A stretch of DNA of 60,197 nt. Origin: a virus. Its lineage: Duplodnaviria; Caudoviricetes. A program made the translations under genes and the position numbers. The notes beneath the pieces are model-generated. The model worked only from the letters and a program-made list of their open reading frames with translations, ran no database searches and was not told the origin of the DNA. Every line of letters begins with the position of its first letter. The first letter of the stretch is position 1. Location: positions 1 through 60,197 of IMG/VR virus record IMGVR_UViG_3300025137_000038, one strand, 5' to 3'. Shown one piece after another: positions 39,818 to 55,044 of the stretch.

Positions 39818-40270
39818 TTAAGCGTCTTCTGTGAAGTCTGTATCGTCTGTACCTGATGCAGTATCGTCGTCACCTGCTTCTTCAAACTGTACTGCTCCAT
39901 CTGAACCTGAAACTGTGAAGTTCCATGGCTTAGATAAACCGTCTAATGCGTTAGATCCAGTAGCACTTGGTTTTGCTAGTGTTACTTTACGTCCTGCAAT
40001 TTTAGATACACCATAAGTTTCACCATCATCACCTTTTACAGAAATTGTCATTTCTGTACCAGTAACTGCGGCTGGTAGTTTACCAGTTACAAGTGTACGA
40101 GTGTATGCAGTACCAGGTGTTCCAGTTGCTTTAACTGAAAACTTTTTACTACCTAGTTGCTTTGCGATATATCCTTCAACAACGGCTGAACCGTTATGAA
40201 AGTTTACTTTAATTTCATTGCCACCTGCAGTAGGTACGCCGAAAAATCTTTTGTTTATTGGTCTTCCCAT
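39818..40270 (-). CDS. Probable capsid-associated structural protein
   Basis: 150 aa with its own TATAAATA promoter, strong RBS AAAGGAG and terminator; near the major capsid gene. Confidence 0.65.
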   Translation of the reverse strand: MGRPINKRFFGVPTAGGNEIKVNFHNGSAVVEGYIAKQLGSKKFSVKATGTPGTAYTRTLVTGKLPAAVTGTEMTISVKGDDGETYGVSKIAGRKVTLAKPSATGSNALDGLSKPWNFTVSGSDGAVQFEEAGDDDTASGTDDTDFTEDA

Positions 40271-40344
40271 TTTATTTCTCCTTTGTTACGTTCTATGTAA
40301 TACGAGGATGGCTCCCCATAAACTTATCTTATGATAAGCACTAC

Positions 40345-40352
40345 TATTTATA
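40345..40352 (-). promoter_or_regulatory. Late promoter TATAAATA
   Basis: Exact consensus, followed by a hairpin-rich leader. Confidence 0.75.
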
Positions 40353-40508
40353 CTATATACCTTGAAGTTTTGGATTGTTTGGTGCTAGTATATTCTTTTC
40401 AGCTCGGGGTCTTGACAGTGGTCTCTCCATTTGCTTTTTATGGATAGCCTTGTGTGCCAATTTTGTTTGTATTTTTTTACGAGCCGCTTCGAAGTCTCTA
40501 TGATTCAT
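40353..40508 (-). CDS. 51-aa basic peptide downstream of the glutamine riboswitch (IF7/GifA-like candidate)
   Basis: MNHRDFEAARKKIQTKLAHKAIHKKQMERPLSRPRAEKNILAPNNPKLQGI*; RBS AAGGAG 7 nt before the ATG; below the ORF-track length cutoff. Confidence 0.75.
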   Translation of the reverse strand: MNHRDFEAARKKIQTKLAHKAIHKKQMERPLSRPRAEKNILAPNNPKLQGI

Positions 40509-40533
40509 AACACTTCTCCTTTTTACAGTTAAA

Positions 40534-40582
40534 GTGCGTTCCTTCGCTTATGCTACTTCCGTCCTATAATAGGATGAACGTA
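40534..40582 (-). ncRNA. Glutamine riboswitch, glnA-motif class
   Basis: - strand: CGUUCA-UCCUA(UUA)UAGGA-CGGAAGUA-GC(AUAA)GC-GAAGGAACG-CAC. This is the three-way junction P1 CGUUC/GAACG, P2, E-loop (AGUA/GAA) and P3 of the glnA RNA consensus. Confidence 0.88.
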
Positions 40583-40586
40583 TTAA

Positions 40587-40594
40587 TATTTAGT
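40587..40594 (-). promoter_or_regulatory. Late promoter box ACTAAATA driving the riboswitch
   Basis: T4 late geometry predicts +1 at 40581, one nt before the aptamer P1. Confidence 0.65.
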
Positions 40595-40605: not shown

Positions 40606-40634
40606 CAAAAAGAAAGGCCCCGGAGGGCCTTTCT
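40606..40634 (-). terminator. Intrinsic terminator of the major capsid transcript
   Basis: Same 10-bp stem as 30243-30266, with UCCG loop and U-tract. Confidence 0.9.
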
Positions 40635-40682
40635 AATATTGTCATGTTAGTTAACAATAATATCCAAAAAGGATAATATCTA

Positions 40683-41930
40683 TTAACTGAATGATGGGTT
40701 AGCGATTGTTACTCTACCAACATAATCAGCCGCGTTACCTAGTGAACTTGCAGTTTGTGAAAGTTCAGCATAACCGTAACGTGTCATGAAGCCAACTAGT
40801 GGCTCTAATGTTGCTGGATCAAGTACTACACCTGAGCTCATTAGTGGAACGTATGGGCAGTAAAAAGCCGCCGCATCAGATTCACTTGAACCTTTGTAAC
40901 CAACAAGAACTGCTTCGCTGTCAGCCGCATAACTGTCAACATAGATTCTCATAGCACTGTTTAAAGTACCTACAAATTTAGTATTTGTTGGTGCTTCAAA
41001 AGTACCTTCAGTTGTTCTTGCGAACGCTGAAGTTGATGCACTTTGTAACATTGTTAATGCAGTTGGAGAAACAACAGCCCAGTTACCTGCGCCACGTCTT
41101 GTTCTCTGTGCGATTTTGTTACTTACTCTGTTGATTGCTACAGCCAAAGCCGCGTGTTCATCACCTACGTAAGTAGCAGTTCCGCTAACAGCCGCTTGGT
41201 CATATGCTTCAGTGTTTGCACCAAAGGCAGTTGAACCAGCCGCCGCTAAAGTTCTTAAAGAACCTAGAACTTCTTGATCGATTTCTGCAGTAATCTCTTG
41301 AGCTAATGCCGCCATGATTTCTGCTTCAACATCAATACCTTGTTGGCTTTGAGCGTCTTGAGCCGCTTCAAAAGTCCAACGAGCTGATAATCTACGTGTT
41401 TTCGCTTCTACAGTTTGACGTAGAATTTCGATTGACATAGTGTTACCAGGTACACCTTCTAAGTATCCTGATGCAGTAGTACCACCGGCTTTTAAGCCTG
41501 CCGCACTTTCTGTACCTGAATAACCAGCGGCTATATCTTTTGGAGATAGAGCTTCGTCGCCAGCACCTAGGTTTGTACCGTCATTTGTTGTTGCCTGGAT
41601 GGCATTACCATCTGCAGGGTTAATTGTATTTGCTGAGTTATATTTCACTCTCAACGTGTGGATTTGAGCAATCGGACCTTGCATAGGCTGTACACCAACA
41701 ATTTCGTTTGCGATAACTGTAGGCATTACACGTCTAATTACGGGTAAAATTACTTTGTTTAATTGTGCTACACCACCTGCCGCTGTTGCGCCACTAGTTG
41801 CCGCCTCTGTTAAGTGGCGTTTAGTGTTTTCAAGTATGGTAGCCATTGTCTTGCGACGAGTACCTTGAAGACCCTCTAAAAGAGCATCTTTAGTATTGTC
41901 CCAACGACCTTCTGCTAAAATATCAGACAT
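40683..41930 (-). CDS. gp23: Major capsid protein (gp23-like)
   Basis: ILPVIRRVMP...IVGVQPMQGP, VEAKTRRLSARWTFEAAQD, EITAEIDQE, FYCPYVPL, FMTRYG. Confidence 0.97.
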   Translation of the reverse strand: MSDILAEGRWDNTKDALLEGLQGTRRKTMATILENTKRHLTEAATSGATAAGGVAQLNKVILPVIRRVMPTVIANEIVGVQPMQGPIAQIHTLRVKYNSANTINPADGNAIQATTNDGTNLGAGDEALSPKDIAAGYSGTESAAGLKAGGTTASGYLEGVPGNTMSIEILRQTVEAKTRRLSARWTFEAAQDAQSQQGIDVEAEIMAALAQEITAEIDQEVLGSLRTLAAAGSTAFGANTEAYDQAAVSGTATYVGDEHAALAVAINRVSNKIAQRTRRGAGNWAVVSPTALTMLQSASTSAFARTTEGTFEAPTNTKFVGTLNSAMRIYVDSYAADSEAVLVGYKGSSESDAAAFYCPYVPLMSSGVVLDPATLEPLVGFMTRYGYAELSQTASSLGNAADYVGRVTIANPSFS

Positions 41931-51551: not shown

Positions 51552-51765
51552 TCTTCTTCCTATGTTTGTTTAACAATAACACCTTCTGGTGGTACTCGTC
51601 AATCTTTTTTTCTGCATAGAAAGGAAATAATGTTGGAACAATTCCATGTATGATGCTTATAATACCCGTAAGTATCAAATCCAAACCTGCCACTATAGCA
51701 AACTTGGTGTGTGCAAAATACGATTTTCCGGCTGTTCTTAAATGTGCCCTAATTGCCCTTATCAT
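51523..51765 (-). CDS. Small membrane-associated protein (DUF6356-like)
   Basis: HL...SYFAH...A...IHGIVP.LF pattern. Confidence 0.5.
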   Translation of the reverse strand: MIRAIRAHLRTAGKSYFAHTKFAIVAGLDLILTGIISIIHGIVPTLFPFYAEKKIDEYHQKVLLLNKHRKKNAKQTKSKR

Positions 51766-53080
51766 AGATTCCCTTTAATTTATTGATGTTCGGTTTACCC
51801 AGAACGTTCAGCTCTATTGGTGTAACTAATTTATCGTGTGTTATACCATTATCATCGAGTTTCTGAATCAACTGCGGAACTTCGAAGTCTTTGTGATGTA
51901 AAACCACTACAACGTGTGTCTGCGAAGTGCTGAATATACAACAGTAACCATTTAACGAATATGGTACAAGTTGTTGTGGATTAATAAGACTATCATCAAT
52001 TCTTATTAAATCACTGTTTCTTTTTTCAAAGTAAAACGTATTTCCGTCTGCACTTACTACATCTTGAGTTACAAATAAATCCACAGGCTTGTCGTTTATT
52101 GTTTGACATAAATGACTGCTACCTTTGATTGTAAGTATGTCTTCATCATCAACCGTATATTCGCCTGATTCGTCAATAATGTAACCCATCTCACTTTCGT
52201 TATATTCACTAAGGTTTTCTATATTAACAACCTTATGTATAACAGGAGGTAAACATTCAGTTAATCCGTAAATGACTGCAACGTTTTTAACTCCTTCATT
52301 CTTTATTAATCTCCTAACAAAATGTATAGGAATAGTACTACCACCAGTAAGTACCCAATTTACACAACTTAAATCTAAATATTGTAAACCTGGATAAGAT
52401 TCAAAGTGTGAAGGAAATATTAACATTATAGTAGGTTTATATTTCTCTATAAGCTCTTTGTCGTAACAATTTGCTAATGGTGGTAAAATAATCTTTTTGC
52501 TAGAAAACAATGCAGGAAAAAAGTAAACACTGCTTACACCCAGGTGTACAATGTTATGAAAAAACCAACTAGTGTTTTCTCCTTGCCAGTATTGTTTAAT
52601 ACTTTCTTGAGTAGCACTCCATATACTTTCATGAGTATGAGAAATACATTTAGGTACTCCTGTACTACCACTTGTTAATGCTTCTACTAAAATTTCTGAA
52701 TGATTAATAGTATATTTTTCATTAGACTCAACAACTTCTGCTTCAATATGATTAACATTAGTTGCAGTAACTTTACATGGTTGAATACCACGTGTAATAA
52801 ATGTTTTTATATTTCGTCTAGAGATATATTCGTTAGTAATATTGTGTTCGCCACTTATAACAATTATAAGTCCAAAGTCAATAGCCGCGAATACAGCCGC
52901 CAAGTGATGTGAATCTTCTTGCATAGCAAGACCAATTCTATCTCCTTTTACTAAGGCGGCTTCTCGGAACAGTTGTTGATACCCAGAAGCAAGACTCATT
53001 AATTGAGATTTACTTATCTGGGTATCATTTATACAATCAACTATTTCAAAATTATTAGATAATTTTGTAATAGAAATCAT
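51749..53080 (-). CDS. ANL-superfamily adenylate-forming enzyme (AMP-binding, acyl-CoA synthetase-like)
   Basis: TSGSTGVPK (A3), YGLTE (A5), TQD (A7), RNSDLIR (A8), GK (A10); likely start MISITK at 53080. Confidence 0.8.
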   Translation of the reverse strand: MISITKLSNNFEIVDCINDTQISKSQLMSLASGYQQLFREAALVKGDRIGLAMQEDSHHLAAVFAAIDFGLIIVISGEHNITNEYISRRNIKTFITRGIQPCKVTATNVNHIEAEVVESNEKYTINHSEILVEALTSGSTGVPKCISHTHESIWSATQESIKQYWQGENTSWFFHNIVHLGVSSVYFFPALFSSKKIILPPLANCYDKELIEKYKPTIMLIFPSHFESYPGLQYLDLSCVNWVLTGGSTIPIHFVRRLIKNEGVKNVAVIYGLTECLPPVIHKVVNIENLSEYNESEMGYIIDESGEYTVDDEDILTIKGSSHLCQTINDKPVDLFVTQDVVSADGNTFYFEKRNSDLIRIDDSLINPQQLVPYSLNGYCCIFSTSQTHVVVVLHHKDFEVPQLIQKLDDNGITHDKLVTPIELNVLGKPNINKLKGIYDKGN

Positions 53081-53084
53081 AAAT

Positions 53085-53261
53085 TTACATACTGTTCTTT
53101 TTTTCTTGGATCTCGGCTCTTCTTGCTTTCGCAAGTTTACCCATTTCACCTAAAGCCTTACGAGCTCTTGCCGCCGCGGCTTTTACGCCTTTGGTTTCAA
53201 ATGCTTCGTTTTCTTTAAGGTAGTTGTCGTAGTGTGCTACGATATCATCATGTATTGCCAT
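53085..53261 (-). CDS. Hc1/histone H1-like small basic protein
   Basis: ENEAFETKGVKAAAARARKALGEMGKLAKARRAEIQEKK; RBS AGGAG before MAIHDD. Confidence 0.7.
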   Translation of the reverse strand: MAIHDDIVAHYDNYLKENEAFETKGVKAAAARARKALGEMGKLAKARRAEIQEKKNSM

Positions 53262-53274
53262 TGTTTTATTTCTC

Positions 53275-55044
53275 CTATACAACGTCGATGTCAGTGTTAT
53301 AACTTGTAAACCCGTTTTCTTTAATAACGGATAGTATGTTATTGACCCGACCAGCGAGTTCGTCTCTGTGAGATACTAACCAAACAGATTTTTTACGTTC
53401 CCGACTGATTTTTTTAAGTATAGCCAGACTGTTTTCAACACCCGAGCTATCCATACCAGAATCAACTAGTTCATCAATGAACAGTAAGTTAATTGGCTGA
53501 TATAAGTTCTCCCAAACATCTCTGAACGCCCAACTTAACGAAAGTATAAGTCTATTACGTTCACCTCTGCTTAGGTTGTCAAAATCTAACTCTCTACCTA
53601 ACTCTGTAATTATTACAGTTAAATCATTTTGAAAAACTACACTATGTGGTAATCCAATACGTTCTAAGTAAAATGCCAGCCTCTTGTTAAGGAATGCTAG
53701 ATTTTGGTCTATTATACGTTTACGAATAAACGAATCTTTACTAGTTAAAAGTTTCAACAAGAAGTCTTGATGTTCCTTTACCCTAGTTAATTCGTTTACT
53801 GTATCGTACTTAACCTCCTCAATTCCATGCTCTTCCATTTCTTGAATCTGCTCATGATATGGATCAACCTGGTTTTGTAGGGTAGTTAATTCGCTTTCTA
53901 ACTGTTCTAAACTAGACCTGTGGTTGTATGCATCGTCTAATTTCTCATAGAATACAACAGGTTTTTCACCTAGTTCACCTATATCTGCTAGTTTAGTTTG
54001 CAGTTCTTTTTCTGTAATAATGTTATTATTAACAGTTTCAACTGATTCAGTTAGTAATTCTTTTTTATCTTTTAATATTTCATCTTGTTTATTGTCATGT
54101 AAATCTTGTCCACAAGCATAACATTTATGTTCTTCTAAAGACTTAATCTCTTTCTCTAATTTTTCTTTAGATTTAACGTGTCTATTAGACTCGCTAGTAA
54201 GTCTGTCATATGCATCTTGTAAATCTGTAAATTCTCTTGCTTTATCGATATAATCTTTACGTTGCTTATGTGCTTCAAGTTCTTTAGTAATATCAACATT
54301 ACTTAAAGACTTCAGTGCTTCGTCGATTTTTACAGAGTCGCTTGTTTTCTTATCTGCCCACATTTTACTTCTGCGTTTTAAAGATTCAATTTGTTCTCTA
54401 ATCTTTTCATTTGCATCAGCAACACTTTTAATCTTATATTCTTCTTGTGTAATTAAATCTTTATTAATACGCAACTGTTCTTTTAGCATATCAGACTTTT
54501 CACTTAATAGTGTAATACCTAATAACTGTTCAATTATAACACGTTGCTCATTGTGTCTCAAACTTAAGAAAGGTTGTGTGTAAGTGTTTAACGCCACAAT
54601 GTGTTTAAACATTTCGTGACTCATACCAAGCAACTCTTCAATTGCTTTTTGTGTTATTCTAGAATCACCTTGTGCAGTATCTTCTGCTTCTTGTTCAGTA
54701 TTGTCGATATAAAACTTTAGTACGTTAGGTTTTCTTCCACGTTCTATTCTATACTTTCTACCACCGTATTCAAATTCAACAGTAACTAACATAGCCTTGC
54801 CGTTAGTTTTGTTTACTAGATTATCTCTACGAATATTAGTTAATGCTAAACCATATAGTGCATAACTTAAAGCATTAATAATAGTTGTTTTACCAGTACC
54901 ATTTCTTGCTCCGTGGTCACCGCCACCTGTATCTAAGTTTTCTCCTAAAACAAGTGTTAAGTCGTTTCTATTAAAGTCTAGTGCTTGGGTACTGTTACCC
55001 ACACTCATAAAATTCTTAACTGTTAAGTTGTTTAGTTTAAACAT
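53275..55044 (-). CDS. gp46: Recombination endonuclease ATPase subunit (gp46/SbcC/Rad50)
   Basis: KNFMSVGN, NGTGKTT, CYAC zinc hook, LSRGE, LFIDE, VSH. Confidence 0.95.
   Translation of the reverse strand: MFKLNNLTVKNFMSVGNSTQALDFNRNDLTLVLGENLDTGGGDHGARNGTGKTTIINALSYALYGLALTNIRRDNLVNKTNGKAMLVTVEFEYGGRKYRIERGRKPNVLKFYIDNTEQEAEDTAQGDSRITQKAIEELLGMSHEMFKHIVALNTYTQPFLSLRHNEQRVIIEQLLGITLLSEKSDMLKEQLRINKDLITQEEYKIKSVADANEKIREQIESLKRRSKMWADKKTSDSVKIDEALKSLSNVDITKELEAHKQRKDYIDKAREFTDLQDAYDRLTSESNRHVKSKEKLEKEIKSLEEHKCYACGQDLHDNKQDEILKDKKELLTESVETVNNNIITEKELQTKLADIGELGEKPVVFYEKLDDAYNHRSSLEQLESELTTLQNQVDPYHEQIQEMEEHGIEEVKYDTVNELTRVKEHQDFLLKLLTSKDSFIRKRIIDQNLAFLNKRLAFYLERIGLPHSVVFQNDLTVIITELGRELDFDNLSRGERNRLILSLSWAFRDVWENLYQPINLLFIDELVDSGMDSSGVENSLAILKKISRERKKSVWLVSHRDELAGRVNNILSVIKENGFTSYNTDIDVV

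What the first reader, a model, noticed from the sequence alone, without database searches (positions are those of the whole stretch)
40353..40594. Phage glutamine riboswitch controlling an unannotated peptide that resembles glutamine synthetase inactivating factor IF7
Seen: a self-contained unit between the capsid terminator and the next structural gene. It has a late box (40587), a glnA-motif aptamer starting at the predicted +2, an AAGGAG RBS and a 51-aa basic ORF missed by the ORF track. The aptamer 5' strand UUCAUCCU (40578-40571) can pair with the RBS region AGGAGAA (40520-40514), which suggests a translational ON switch when glutamine stabilises P1. Established: glnA-class riboswitches bind L-glutamine, and in Synechocystis one activates gifB (IF17), a GS inhibitor. 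Inference: the peptide segment AR...HKAIHKKQMERPLSRPRAE lines up with IF7 as I recall it (AR...HQFIKNRQQSMLSRAAAE; recalled from memory, not looked up). The phage may therefore sense host nitrogen status late in infection and throttle glutamine synthetase or another nitrogen target.
Basis: partly seen in the sequence, partly recalled or inferred. Interest (0 to 1): 0.9.

Follow-up and report, generated by a model that had tools for sequence, protein, structure and literature searches.

The report
Phage glutamine riboswitch driving a small protein
A marine giant phage carries a genuine glutamine-sensing RNA switch, placed behind its own late promoter, that controls a small, conserved, phage-only basic protein of unknown target; the proposed kinship with the cyanobacterial enzyme inhibitor IF7 did not hold up.

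Summary
The unit is real. Rfam's glutamine riboswitch model (RF01739) hits 40533-40582(-) at 56.5 bits against a threshold of 35. It lies 6 nt after a CTAAATA late-type box and 25 nt before an AAGGAG/ATG that opens a 51-aa ORF (40353-40508). The ORF is a real gene. It belongs to a phage protein family of 816 clusters, is under purifying selection (pN/pS 0.25), and occurs in 164 viral loci. All 61 aptamer-linked copies examined share the box, aptamer and leader layout, including Pelagibacter phage Mosig.

The aptamer stems covary. A 6-7 bp helix between the nucleotides just 3' of P1 and the SD-AUG spacer is the likelier expression platform. It matches the gifB model, so the switch is probably glutamine-ON (inferred).

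IF7/IF17 kinship is not supported. There is no DUF4278 hit, hhalign gives probability 0.1, and the IF7 profile scores the peptides no better than shuffles. Only a marginal motif match remains. The peptide's target is unknown. This is a new variant of a known kind, of moderate interest.

The parts
40611..40634 (-). Intrinsic terminator of the upstream gp23-type major capsid gene (40683-41930). It marks the 5' boundary of the unit.
   Evidence: 10-pair stem (6 G-C) followed by a T-run. Pfam Gp23, 329.5 bits, for 40683-41930.
40587..40593 (-). T4-like late-promoter-type box CTAAATA, 6 nt upstream of the aptamer's CGUUCA.
   Evidence: A TAAATA box lies 6-10 nt before the first aptamer in 61 of 61 aptamer-bearing loci. 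Promoter activity itself is inferred.
40533..40582 (-). Type-1 (glnA-motif) glutamine riboswitch aptamer.
   Evidence: RF01739, 56.5 bits (GA 35), model 1-53; 95.2% of cells paired across 29 leaders, with 14 of 29 sequences carrying double (compensatory) changes at two P2 pairs.
40510..40537 (-). Proposed expression platform: a helix between the aptamer's 3' tail (G40537, C40536-U40531) and the last G of the SD plus the SD-AUG spacer (G40516-G40511, U40510). The SD lies in or at its loop.
   Evidence: MFE fold; helix 5 is 98.3% paired but almost invariant. The window has one extra U and one extra A on opposite arms, which adds a pair. Mosig has a different tail that pairs directly with its SD. 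By analogy with gifB (passages of PMC6212724).
40516..40521 (-). Shine-Dalgarno sequence AAGGAG, 7 nt before the ATG.
   Evidence: A purine-rich SD lies at the same place in all 29 aligned leaders.
40353..40508 (-). 51-aa basic protein (stop codon included): an N-terminal helix plus a conserved C-terminal tail (…RPRAEKNIL…P..Q.I). It belongs to a large unnamed phage family.
   Evidence: 816 clusters at E<=10; pN/pS 0.25; helix 3-28, tail pLDDT about 60; 88.8 bits to the family profile.
40345..40352 (-). TATAAATA box directly after the stop codon. It starts the next late unit (freshwater-2 leader plus the 150-aa gene) and marks the 3' boundary. No terminator lies between.
   Evidence: no terminator-like site downstream of the ORF; freshwater-2 at 40268-40338.

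Best explanation
This is a mobile, self-contained late-gene cassette of marine T4-like myophages, laid out as late-type promoter box, type-1 glutamine riboswitch, SD/AUG, then a 50-51-aa basic protein.

Without glutamine, the nucleotides immediately 3' of aptamer stem P1 form a 6-7 bp helix with the end of the SD and the SD-AUG spacer. These nucleotides include the C that makes the long-range G-C pair in the ligand-bound structure. The helix hinders ribosome access. Glutamine binding locks P1 and captures that C, which shortens the helix and turns translation on. This is the same logic proposed for cyanobacterial gifB.

The product is a phage-only small protein. It has one basic helix (residues 3-28) and a disordered but highly conserved C-terminal tail. 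It most likely acts as a host-directed effector that docks on a partner through that tail once the infected cell is glutamine-replete late in infection. It is not a detectable homologue of IF7/IF17, and its target is unknown. Glutamine synthetase is one candidate among several.

Shown: the aptamer, the cassette architecture and its conservation, and the coding status. Inferred: promoter use, the ON direction, the effector role and the target.
For: Aptamer:
- RF01739 scores 56.5 bits against 35.
- The model is above threshold in 11 of 11 tested subfamily-A loci, in Mosig and in Melnitz.
- Stem covariation: 95.2% paired against 87.1% in shuffles, with 0 of 500 shuffles reaching it, and 14 of 29 double changes at two P2 pairs.

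Cassette:
- The aptamer core motif lies 19-27 nt before the ATG in 61 of 61 loci (59 IMG/VR loci, the window and Mosig). The distance is 25 nt in 57 of them.
- A TAAATA box lies 6-10 nt upstream in 61 of 61.
- The same cassette sits in different neighbourhoods. It follows the capsid gene directly or after speD-like or NifU-like genes, follows tRNAs, and in Mosig lies next to a tRNA cluster.

Coding status:
- 20 clusters with the single query and 816 with the profile.
- pN/pS is 0.248 over 496 pairs and 0.235 over 136 pairs.
- Length is fixed at 50-51 aa.
- Homologues without any riboswitch exist: 21 of the 80 loci kept lack the aptamer motif, and Rfam found nothing in 6 of 6 tested.

Expression platform:
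- The MFE fold shows the tail/spacer helix.
- The helix is paired in 98.3% of cells.
- A bound-state mimic raises SD-AUG accessibility in 26 of 29 leaders, though only modestly.
- Cyanobacterial gifB-type leaders fetched here show the same tail-to-SD complementarity (downstream strings of L086 and L143).
- Klahn et al. 2018 (passages) describe exactly this model and show that gifB is glutamine-ON.

Phage-only family: the profile found nothing in 187 genomes of the order of G001 or in 400 of 400 scored genomes of the class of G002. It scored 88.8 bits on the window as a positive control.

Structure: helix 3-28 with pLDDT 86-96, tail about 60.

Weak hint of expression: in one seawater RNA library, a 475-nt contig with no mismatch covers 40100-40566. 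That spans the whole ORF and most of the aptamer. A separate contig covers the capsid gene's 3' end, 40629-40989.
Against: - The platform helix is nearly invariant, so covariation neither proves nor disproves it. Support comes only from the window's paired insertions and from Mosig's different tail.
- The thermodynamic shift between the free and bound mimics is small: for the window, 0.32 to 0.38 unpaired. It goes the other way in 3 of 29 leaders, among them Mosig L001 at 0.44 to 0.41.
- No ligand-binding or reporter data exist for any phage copy.
- The late-box 7-mer is not enriched in the window as a whole.
- RNA-library contigs can contain DNA and cannot show a 5' end.
- Nothing found here identifies the peptide's partner. 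Pfam, NCBIfam, PHROGs, PDB sequences and the ESM Atlas all gave nothing.
- In Melnitz the same leader precedes a different 32-aa ORF. The riboswitch is therefore not tied to this one protein family.
Confidence: 0.65

Rival explanations
1. One reading: the peptide is a relative of the cyanobacterial glutamine synthetase inactivating factor IF7, and it shuts down host GS when glutamine is high.
For: - Same regulatory logic and aptamer class as gifB (passages of PMC6212724).
- In my genome scan, short IF7-like ORFs of 49-56 aa also lie directly behind glnA aptamers in 10 of the 80 loci examined.
- Similar size, basic charge and predicted disorder of the conserved part.
- The phage profile aligns without gaps to two of the 15 IF7-like sequences over the block ending in …R..AE. 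The best scores 9.5 bits, reached by 2 of 1490 shuffles. The second scores 5.3 bits.
- Marine heterotrophs place the same aptamer in front of GS, Amt and GOGAT genes, so the signal is tied to nitrogen assimilation in likely hosts.
Against: - hhalign probability is 0.11 and 0.10, with one aligned column.
- The IF7 profile scores the 39 distinct phage peptides at 1.7 bits or less (median -0.2). Their 780 shuffles have a median of 0.2 and a maximum of 9.8.
- In the reverse search, 13 of 15 IF7-like sequences score 2.7 bits or less, and the real median (0.6) equals the shuffle median (0.4).
- No DUF4278 hit.
- The IF7 block has three invariant arginines at fixed spacing of 13 and 7, described as essential in passages of PMC6316151. 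In the only register HMMER finds, the window peptide has Arg at just one of the three positions (R33; the other two are I13 and Q26). R10 is not conserved in the family.
- GS inhibition by small proteins is described as unique to cyanobacteria, and this phage clade's host is unknown.
Confidence: 0.1
2. The switch is glutamine-OFF. The peptide is made when glutamine is scarce, for example to slow or re-route the late programme under nitrogen starvation.
For: - The direction was not measured.
- In marine heterotrophs the same aptamer precedes GS and ammonium transporter genes. Klahn et al. consider negative regulation reasonable for these (passage).
- The modelled accessibility shift is small, and 3 of 29 leaders go the other way.
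Against: - The helix that competes with the bound state occludes the SD/spacer, not an anti-sequestor.
- The 25-nt leader has no room for a terminator or a second alternative hairpin.
- The architecture matches the experimentally ON gifB leader.
Confidence: 0.15
3. The peptide serves the phage itself rather than attacking host nitrogen metabolism. It could be a nucleic-acid- or ribosome-binding basic protein, or a head or packaging accessory. The riboswitch would then only match its synthesis to amino-acid supply.
For: - Net charge is about +9, with a single long basic helix.
- In 36 of 60 subfamily-A loci (the window included) it lies within two genes downstream of the capsid gene, inside the late structural block.
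- It is driven by a late-type box.
- Homologues exist without any riboswitch, embedded in operons.
Against: - The slot after the capsid gene also holds metabolic add-ons: speD-like in 25 loci and NifU-like in 13. This looks like an accessory island rather than core structure.
- The most conserved part is a disordered tail, typical of a docking motif.
- The cassette moves between unrelated contexts and between phage lineages. The window's capsid is closest to jumbo phages at 62-65% identity, while Mosig is Kyanoviridae.
Confidence: 0.2

Closest known systems
Type-1 glutamine riboswitch of Synechocystis gifB (IF17), Klahn et al. 2018 (PMC6212724; passages read)
   Same: - Same Rfam family (RF01739).
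- 5'-UTR position just before a small basic protein.
- The nucleotides just 3' of P1, including the long-range-pairing C, are complementary to the RBS region.
- The expected outcome is more translation when glutamine is high.
   Different: - The carrier is a phage under a T4-type late box instead of an NtcA-repressed promoter.
- The product has no DUF4278 domain and no detectable IF7-like domain.
- The helix covers the SD's last G and the SD-AUG spacer rather than the SD core.
- No experimental data exist.
Glutamine riboswitches reported in Methylophilales phage Melnitz, Pelagibacter phage Mosig and related viral contigs, Buchholz et al. 2022 (PMC9004378; passages read)
   Same: Same aptamer class in marine T4-like phages of streamlined heterotrophs. 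Mosig carries the same riboswitch-peptide cassette: RF01739 at 50 bits, 16 nt before the 51-aa Mosig_00116, which is 35% identical.
   Different: - That paper assigns the Melnitz riboswitch to the ssrA (tmRNA) gene. The passages I read do not mention a downstream peptide.
- Here the aptamer in Melnitz (L204 1500-1548) lies after the tmRNA models end (1447 and 1492). It lies directly before an unannotated 32-aa ORF and has the same leader as the window.
- The window belongs to another phage lineage whose capsid is closest to jumbo myophages.
Type-2 glutamine riboswitch / Downstream-peptide motif (RF01704) with short DUF4278 proteins in marine picocyanobacteria (Weinberg 2010, PMC2864571; Klahn 2018)
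   Same: A glutamine aptamer directly upstream of a short conserved ORF of unknown biochemical role, widespread in marine metagenomes.
   Different: A different aptamer family, a different peptide family and cellular rather than viral carriers.
IF7 (GifA), the glutamine synthetase inactivating factor
   Same: Small, basic, about 50-65 aa. IF7-like ORFs also follow glnA aptamers in some cyanobacteria.
   Different: No profile similarity. The three-arginine signature is not reproduced. The phage family's hallmark, a C-terminal …RPRAEKNIL…P..Q.I tail, has no counterpart in the IF7 alignment.

Membership tests
Rfam RF01739 glutamine riboswitch (glnA motif, type 1) | Covariance-model score at or above the curated gathering score over the full model | tested here: met
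   56.5 bits against 35, model 1-53 of 53, E 8.4e-10 (repeated).
Rfam RF01739 glutamine riboswitch (glnA motif, type 1) | Stem architecture (P1 plus two internal stems) maintained by compensatory changes in relatives | tested here: met
   Across 29 distinct leaders, 95.2% of cells pair, against 87.1% in shuffles (0 of 500 reach it) and 54% or less in slid controls. Two P2 pairs change on both sides in 14 of 29 sequences.
Rfam RF01739 glutamine riboswitch (glnA motif, type 1) | Invariant core nucleotides (CGGAAGUA…GAAGGAACGC) and a 5'-UTR position next to an RBS | tested here: met
   The core is invariant in the alignment. The aptamer ends 19-27 nt before the ATG in 61 of 61 loci.
Rfam RF01739 glutamine riboswitch (glnA motif, type 1) | Selective binding of L-glutamine and a ligand-dependent change in expression | not testable with these tools
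   Needs in-line probing or ITC and a reporter assay.
gifB-type translational ON platform | The nucleotides just 3' of P1 (with the long-range-pairing C) pair with the ribosome-binding region in the ligand-free state | tested here: inconclusive
   The helix is present in the MFE fold and paired in 98.3% of cells, but 3 of 6 pairs never vary. Supporting cases are the window's paired insertions and Mosig's different tail pairing with its SD. The modelled accessibility change is small.
IF7/IF17 glutamine synthetase inactivating factors (GifA/GifB) | Sequence or profile similarity to the IF7 domain (the C-terminal moiety of IF17) | tested here: not met
   hhalign probability 0.11 and 0.10. The IF7 HMM scores the 39 phage peptides at 1.7 bits or less, against a shuffle maximum of 9.8. 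The reverse search gives a best score of 9.5 bits, with the median equal to that of shuffles.
IF7/IF17 glutamine synthetase inactivating factors (GifA/GifB) | DUF4278 (PF14105), the N-terminal domain of IF17 and IF17-like proteins | tested here: not met
   No Pfam family at E<=1 for the peptide. The same scan finds DUF4278 at 46-78 bits in the cyanobacterial ORFs behind aptamers.
IF7/IF17 glutamine synthetase inactivating factors (GifA/GifB) | Three conserved arginines essential for GS binding (passages of PMC6316151), invariant with spacing 13 and 7 in my 15-sequence alignment | tested here: not met
   The family's invariant basic residues are K11 and R33 only, with K25, R35 and K38 at 90% or more. 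In HMMER's register the window has I13, Q26 and R33 at the three positions.
IF7/IF17 glutamine synthetase inactivating factors (GifA/GifB) | Binds and inactivates type-I glutamine synthetase | not testable with these tools
   Requires an enzyme assay or pull-down with the host's GS. The host of this phage clade is unknown.
T4-type late transcription unit | A TATAAATA-like box a few nucleotides upstream of the transcript start, in front of late genes | tested here: inconclusive
   A box is present in 61 of 61 cassettes at 6-10 nt, and a TATAAATA box precedes the next leader. The 7-mer is not enriched in the window. The start site is unmapped, and the late sigma and co-activator genes were not looked for in this fragment.
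Unnamed phage 50-51-aa basic protein family (includes Mosig_00116) | Full-length match to the family profile with the conserved C-terminal …RPRAEKNIL…P..Q.I tail | tested here: met
   88.8 bits, E 1.6e-26. Invariant columns M1 N2 D5 K11 A21 R33 N39 Q49 across 116 sequences.

The most novel reading that the evidence does not exclude
Marine phages of heterotrophic bacteria carry a glutamine-gated small protein that is a convergent functional counterpart of the cyanobacterial GS inactivating factors, not a homologue. When the infected cell's glutamine pool is full, the riboswitch turns on a phage effector. Its conserved C-terminal tail then docks on glutamine synthetase, or on another nitrogen-assimilation protein that the hosts themselves put under the same riboswitch (Amt, GOGAT). 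This would redirect ATP and glutamate to virion production. If true, it would extend protein-inhibitor control of nitrogen assimilation beyond cyanobacteria and would give phages a direct metabolite sensor for timing host takeover.
Probability: 0.12. Interest if true: 0.85.

Novelty: new variant of a known kind. Interest (0 to 1): 0.55.

Why it matters
Riboswitches in phages are rare, and what they control is mostly guessed. This work links the phage glutamine riboswitch to a defined, very widespread target: a phage-only family of 50-51-aa proteins. The family comprises 816 protein clusters and occurs on contigs of up to about 220 kb. The cassette architecture is shared between at least two phage lineages.

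The result also suggests the published link to tmRNA in Melnitz should be re-examined.

It offers a compact, testable system in which a virus reads the host's nitrogen status directly through RNA and answers with one small protein. Cultured material exists for the test, namely phage Mosig on Pelagibacter HTCC1062.

It removes an attractive but unsupported annotation (IF7-like) before it spreads.

Tried and rejected
- Family libraries. Pfam, NCBIfam and PHROGs scans of the peptide and of Mosig_00116 gave no family. A PDB sequence search with the family profile gave only a chance coiled-coil hit, geminin at E 0.46. The ESM Atlas gave no usable hit.
- Single-sequence phmmer against 1.84 billion representatives found 6 proteins, all family members or fragments.
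- Longer forms. The search found 14 sporadic proteins of 93-151 aa, 12 of them single sequences, and 3 of the 14 each carried a different Pfam domain. There is no recurrent fusion.
- Complex prediction. I tried the peptide with a glutamine synthetase taken from a marine alphaproteobacterial single-cell genome that has the aptamer in front of its GS gene. The tool returned 'no answer' (score 0.00, mark 0.32, controls not run), which counts neither for nor against binding. One GS chain only could be sent, and the true host is unknown.
- RNA-library contigs. Three of the 4 runs laid (X13, X14, X16) had no contig over the peptide and aptamer. This is no evidence of silence.
- Megablast of 8 kb around the unit against isolate phages found no match.
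- The weak tblastn hit to Pelagibacter phage HTVC023P gp47 (E 0.8) was not pursued. No riboswitch is present in that locus.
- I considered a transcription-terminator platform and rejected it. Only 25 nt separate the aptamer from the ATG, and no terminator-like site is there.
- Literature. Searches for 'glutamine riboswitch' with 'phage' (22 papers) and with 'SAR11' (3 papers) turned up no description of the peptide family. Supplements were closed, including Klahn's Tables S1-S2 and Fig. S3 and Buchholz's Table S1. They may list downstream ORFs that I could not see.
- A search for 'freshwater-2' found nothing relevant.
Full report
WHAT IS THERE

The window is a 60,197-bp fragment of an IMG/VR virus record (CheckV completeness 16%). 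It encodes a T4-like structural block:
- a gp23-type major capsid protein at 40683-41930(-) (Pfam Gp23, 329.5 bits);
- a large terminase;
- a gp15-like tail protein.

The capsid protein is closest to jumbo myophages, at 62-65% amino-acid identity to Sinorhizobium phage Phosso, Vibrio phage 2.275.O and Pseudomonas phage PA5oct.

Downstream of the capsid gene, on the minus strand, the sequence reads in this order:
- a strong intrinsic terminator, 40634-40611;
- CTAAATA, 40593-40587;
- six bases later, a full-length match to Rfam's glutamine riboswitch RF01739, 40582-40533, at 56.5 bits against a gathering score of 35;
- 25 nt of leader containing AAGGAG (40521-40516);
- ATG at 40508, opening a 51-aa ORF that ends at 40353.

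Directly after the stop codon comes a perfect TATAAATA (40352-40345). It is followed by a second Rfam hit, freshwater-2 (40338-40268, 58 bits against 49.9), which runs into the start codon of the next gene (39818-40270). No terminator separates the two units.

IS THE ORF A GENE?

Yes. The evidence is as follows.
- The single-sequence search found 20 protein clusters of 50-71 aa at 66-96% identity, on contigs of up to 219,600 bp.
- A 20-sequence profile found 816 clusters at E<=10. The 120 listed were all at 91 bits or more, none carried a Pfam domain, and the only source names were 'hypothetical protein' or bare gene-call coordinates.
- In IMG/VR, 164 stretches encode a relative. The best 80 were kept.
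- The proteins are 50-51 aa long. N-terminally extended forms start from an in-frame ATG inside the aptamer and are gene-calling artefacts.
- Pairwise pN/pS is 0.248 (32 distinct coding sequences, 496 pairs) and 0.235 (17 sequences, 136 pairs).
- Across 116 sequences the invariant columns are M1 N2 D5 K11 A21 R33 N39 Q49. The most conserved stretch is the C-terminal …RPRAEKNIL…P..Q.I.
- AlphaFold2 with this alignment predicts one helix, residues 3-28 (block pLDDT 88/96/86), and an unstructured tail (about 60).
- Longer forms are sporadic.
- The profile found nothing in 187 genomes of the order that contains a Pelagibacteraceae genome, nor in 400 scored genomes of the class of a SAR86-like gammaproteobacterial MAG. 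It scored 88.8 bits on the window itself. In what I searched, the family is phage-only.

THE CASSETTE IS CONSERVED AND MOBILE

Two subfamilies exist.

Subfamily A includes the window and loci L004-L062.
- All 59 loci carry the aptamer core before the ATG; across the 61 aptamer-bearing loci (these, the window and Mosig) the distance is 19-27 nt, and 25 nt in 57.
- Together with the window and Mosig, all 61 carry a TAAATA box 6-10 nt before the first aptamer.
- Rfam confirmed RF01739 above threshold in 11 of 11 subfamily-A loci tested.
- Four loci (L020-L022, L026) have two aptamers in tandem.

Subfamily B comprises loci L063-L083.
- It lacks the aptamer: 21 of 21 by motif and 6 of 6 by Rfam.
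- It sits inside operons.

Pelagibacter phage Mosig (Kyanoviridae) is the informative exception. Its 51-aa Mosig_00116 is subfamily-B-like (35% identical to the window's peptide). It is preceded by RF01739 at 50 bits, in an entirely different neighbourhood next to a tRNA cluster.

In subfamily A, the capsid gene lies within two genes upstream in 36 of 60 loci. The slot in between is often filled by a speD-like gene (25 loci) or a NifU-like gene (13 loci). Other copies follow tRNA genes. The capsid proteins of these loci are 66-72% identical to the window's. The unit therefore behaves like an accessory cassette in an island of add-on genes, and it is shared across phage lineages.

THE RNA

Across 29 distinct leaders the aptamer's stems are well supported.
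- 95.2% of cells pair, against 87.1% in shuffles (0 of 500 reach it) and 54% or less when partners are slid.
- Two pairs of the second stem switch between U-A/C-G and G-C/G-C in 14 of 29 sequences.

56.9% of its cells pair, against 59.8% in shuffles, with no compensatory change.

The minimum-free-energy fold shows something else: a hairpin in which G40537·U40510, C40536-G40511, A-U, C-G, U-A, U-A and U40531·G40516 pair, enclosing the SD. Several observations bear on this helix.
- It is present in 98.3% of cells but is almost invariant.
- The window carries one extra U on the 5' arm and one extra A on the 3' arm relative to the other 27 subfamily-A leaders, which adds a pair.
- Mosig has a different tail (GCUCUUU) that pairs directly with its SD (AAGGAGU).
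- The cyanobacterial gifB-type leaders I fetched show the same tail-to-SD complementarity (L086 and L143).
- Klahn et al. 2018 (passages) describe this model for gifB. The C just 3' of P1 forms a long-range G-C pair in the glutamine-bound structure. In the free RNA, that C and the following bases can pair with the RBS. gifB translation rises with glutamine.

By analogy, I read the phage element as a translational ON switch. A crude bound-state mimic (P1 forced, that C unpaired) raises SD-AUG accessibility in 26 of 29 leaders, but only modestly. For the window the change is 0.32 to 0.38. The direction is therefore inferred, not shown.

THE IF7 QUESTION

To avoid relying on memory, I fetched real sequences. 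A pattern for the aptamer core was scanned over one genome per prokaryote species.

In cyanobacteria, the ORF behind the aptamer falls into two types.
- A DUF4278 protein (Pfam 46-78 bits). Some of these carry a C-terminal extension, as expected for IF17.
- In 10 loci, a 49-56-aa protein that aligns with that extension.

The resulting 15-sequence alignment has three invariant arginines spaced 13 and 7 residues apart. This matches the three conserved arginines reported as essential for IF7 (passages of PMC6316151). Source databases call these proteins only 'hypothetical' or 'DUF4278 domain-containing'. Their identification as the IF7 domain therefore rests on this architecture and on the literature.

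Tests against this alignment gave these results.
- hhalign with the phage family gave probability 0.11 (20 sequences) and 0.10 (116 sequences), with one aligned column.
- The IF7 HMM scored the 39 distinct phage peptides at 1.7 bits or less, whereas 780 shuffled peptides reached 9.8 bits.
- The reverse search was marginal. One sequence scored 9.5 bits (2 of 1490 shuffles reach it) and one scored 5.3 bits. The other 13 scored 2.7 bits or less, and the real median equals the shuffle median.
- In that register, the window peptide has arginine at one of the three essential positions.

I conclude that homology is not supported. What remains is a short, compositionally favoured resemblance.

WHAT THE SWITCH CONTROLS ELSEWHERE

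In marine heterotroph genomes (SAR11-like, SAR116, SAR86 and other proteobacteria), the same aptamer, often in tandem, precedes nitrogen-assimilation genes:
- glutamine synthetase;
- ammonium transporters;
- a GOGAT small-subunit-like protein;
- a circularly permuted ATP-grasp protein.

It also precedes further unrelated small basic ORFs. Passages in Weinberg 2010 and Klahn 2018 report similar metagenomic associations.

In phage Melnitz, the aptamer (L204 1500-1548, 52.8 bits) lies after the end of the tmRNA models (1447 and 1492). It lies directly before an unannotated 32-aa ORF and has the same leader as the window. The published statement that it controls ssrA (passages of PMC9004378) therefore deserves re-examination.

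EXPRESSION

Seawater metatranscriptome assemblies hold the region. In one run (X8), a 475-nt contig without mismatch covers 40100-40566. That is the next gene's start, the whole peptide ORF and most of the aptamer. A separate contig covers 40629-40989, the 3' end of the capsid gene. The break between them coincides with the terminator-promoter gap. This is a weak hint only, because such libraries can contain DNA and contigs do not show ends.

VERDICT

The new point is its consistent coupling, behind a late-type box, to a very widespread phage-only small protein. The IF7 reading fails the membership tests, but its functional core (a glutamine-gated regulator of host nitrogen metabolism) remains possible and testable.

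Noticed in passing
window 40268-40352 (-); also L023 3190-3274: The Rfam motif freshwater-2 (RF02980, 58 bits against 49.9) begins about 7 nt after a perfect TATAAATA box that abuts the peptide's stop codon. It runs through the SD and ATG of the next gene (150 aa, no family hit). The same motif (71 bits) follows the peptide gene in L023. It looks like a phage late-gene 5' leader in marine, not only freshwater, phages.
   Followed up: partly
L204 (Methylophilales phage Melnitz MZ577097) 1500-1669: The published 'tmRNA-controlling' glutamine riboswitch lies after the tmRNA models end (1447 and 1492). It lies directly upstream of an unannotated 32-aa basic ORF (1571-1669) and has the same leader as the window. 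The record instead annotates a 33-aa ORF on the opposite strand.
   Followed up: partly
L138 7677-7784 (-), in a proteobacterial MAG contig with bacterial neighbours: Tandem glutamine aptamers with a phage-like leader precede a 36-aa basic ORF. Its first 18 residues resemble the Melnitz 32-aa ORF (7 of 18 identical, pairwise E 6e-4). The neighbours are LrgB, hydrolase, monooxygenase and binding-protein genes, so this looks host-encoded. It may be the cellular source of such cassettes.
   Followed up: partly
L085, L097, L104, L130, L132, L134, L145, L149, L150, L161 (cyanobacterial genomes): Short ORFs of 49-56 aa that align with the C-terminal, IF7-like part of IF17 lie directly behind glnA aptamers in 10 of the 80 loci examined. 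The passages of Klahn et al. that I read tie the aptamer to gifB/DUF4278 genes. Databases call these ORFs 'hypothetical'.
   Followed up: partly
L105 2723-2884 (-), L128 2387-2539 (-), L113, L094, L154 7563-7742: SAR86-like and other gammaproteobacterial genomes place tandem glutamine aptamers in front of further small basic ORFs. Two of these end in …PYYL. A Porticoccaceae MAG has a 60-aa ORF with YRG repeats that scores just under the DUF4278 threshold (22.8 bits against 25.3). Small proteins under glutamine riboswitches seem widespread outside cyanobacteria.
   Followed up: partly
L020, L021, L022, L026 (about 2869-2978): These phage loci carry two glutamine aptamers in tandem before the peptide gene (61-66 bits each in L020). 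The second aptamer and the linker closely resemble the tandem aptamers of gammaproteobacterial MAGs (L105, L128, L138). This is a possible clue to the host.
   Followed up: no
L051 2544-2924, L034 394-771 and relatives: Between the capsid gene and the cassette, many related phages carry a speD-like S-adenosylmethionine decarboxylase (25 loci) or a NifU-like Fe-S scaffold gene (13 loci). The site behaves as an island of metabolic add-ons.
   Followed up: partly
window 51749-53149 (-): A 466-aa AMP-binding (adenylate-forming) enzyme is encoded in the phage fragment, next to an SMC/AAA_23-type ATPase (53275-55044).
   Followed up: no
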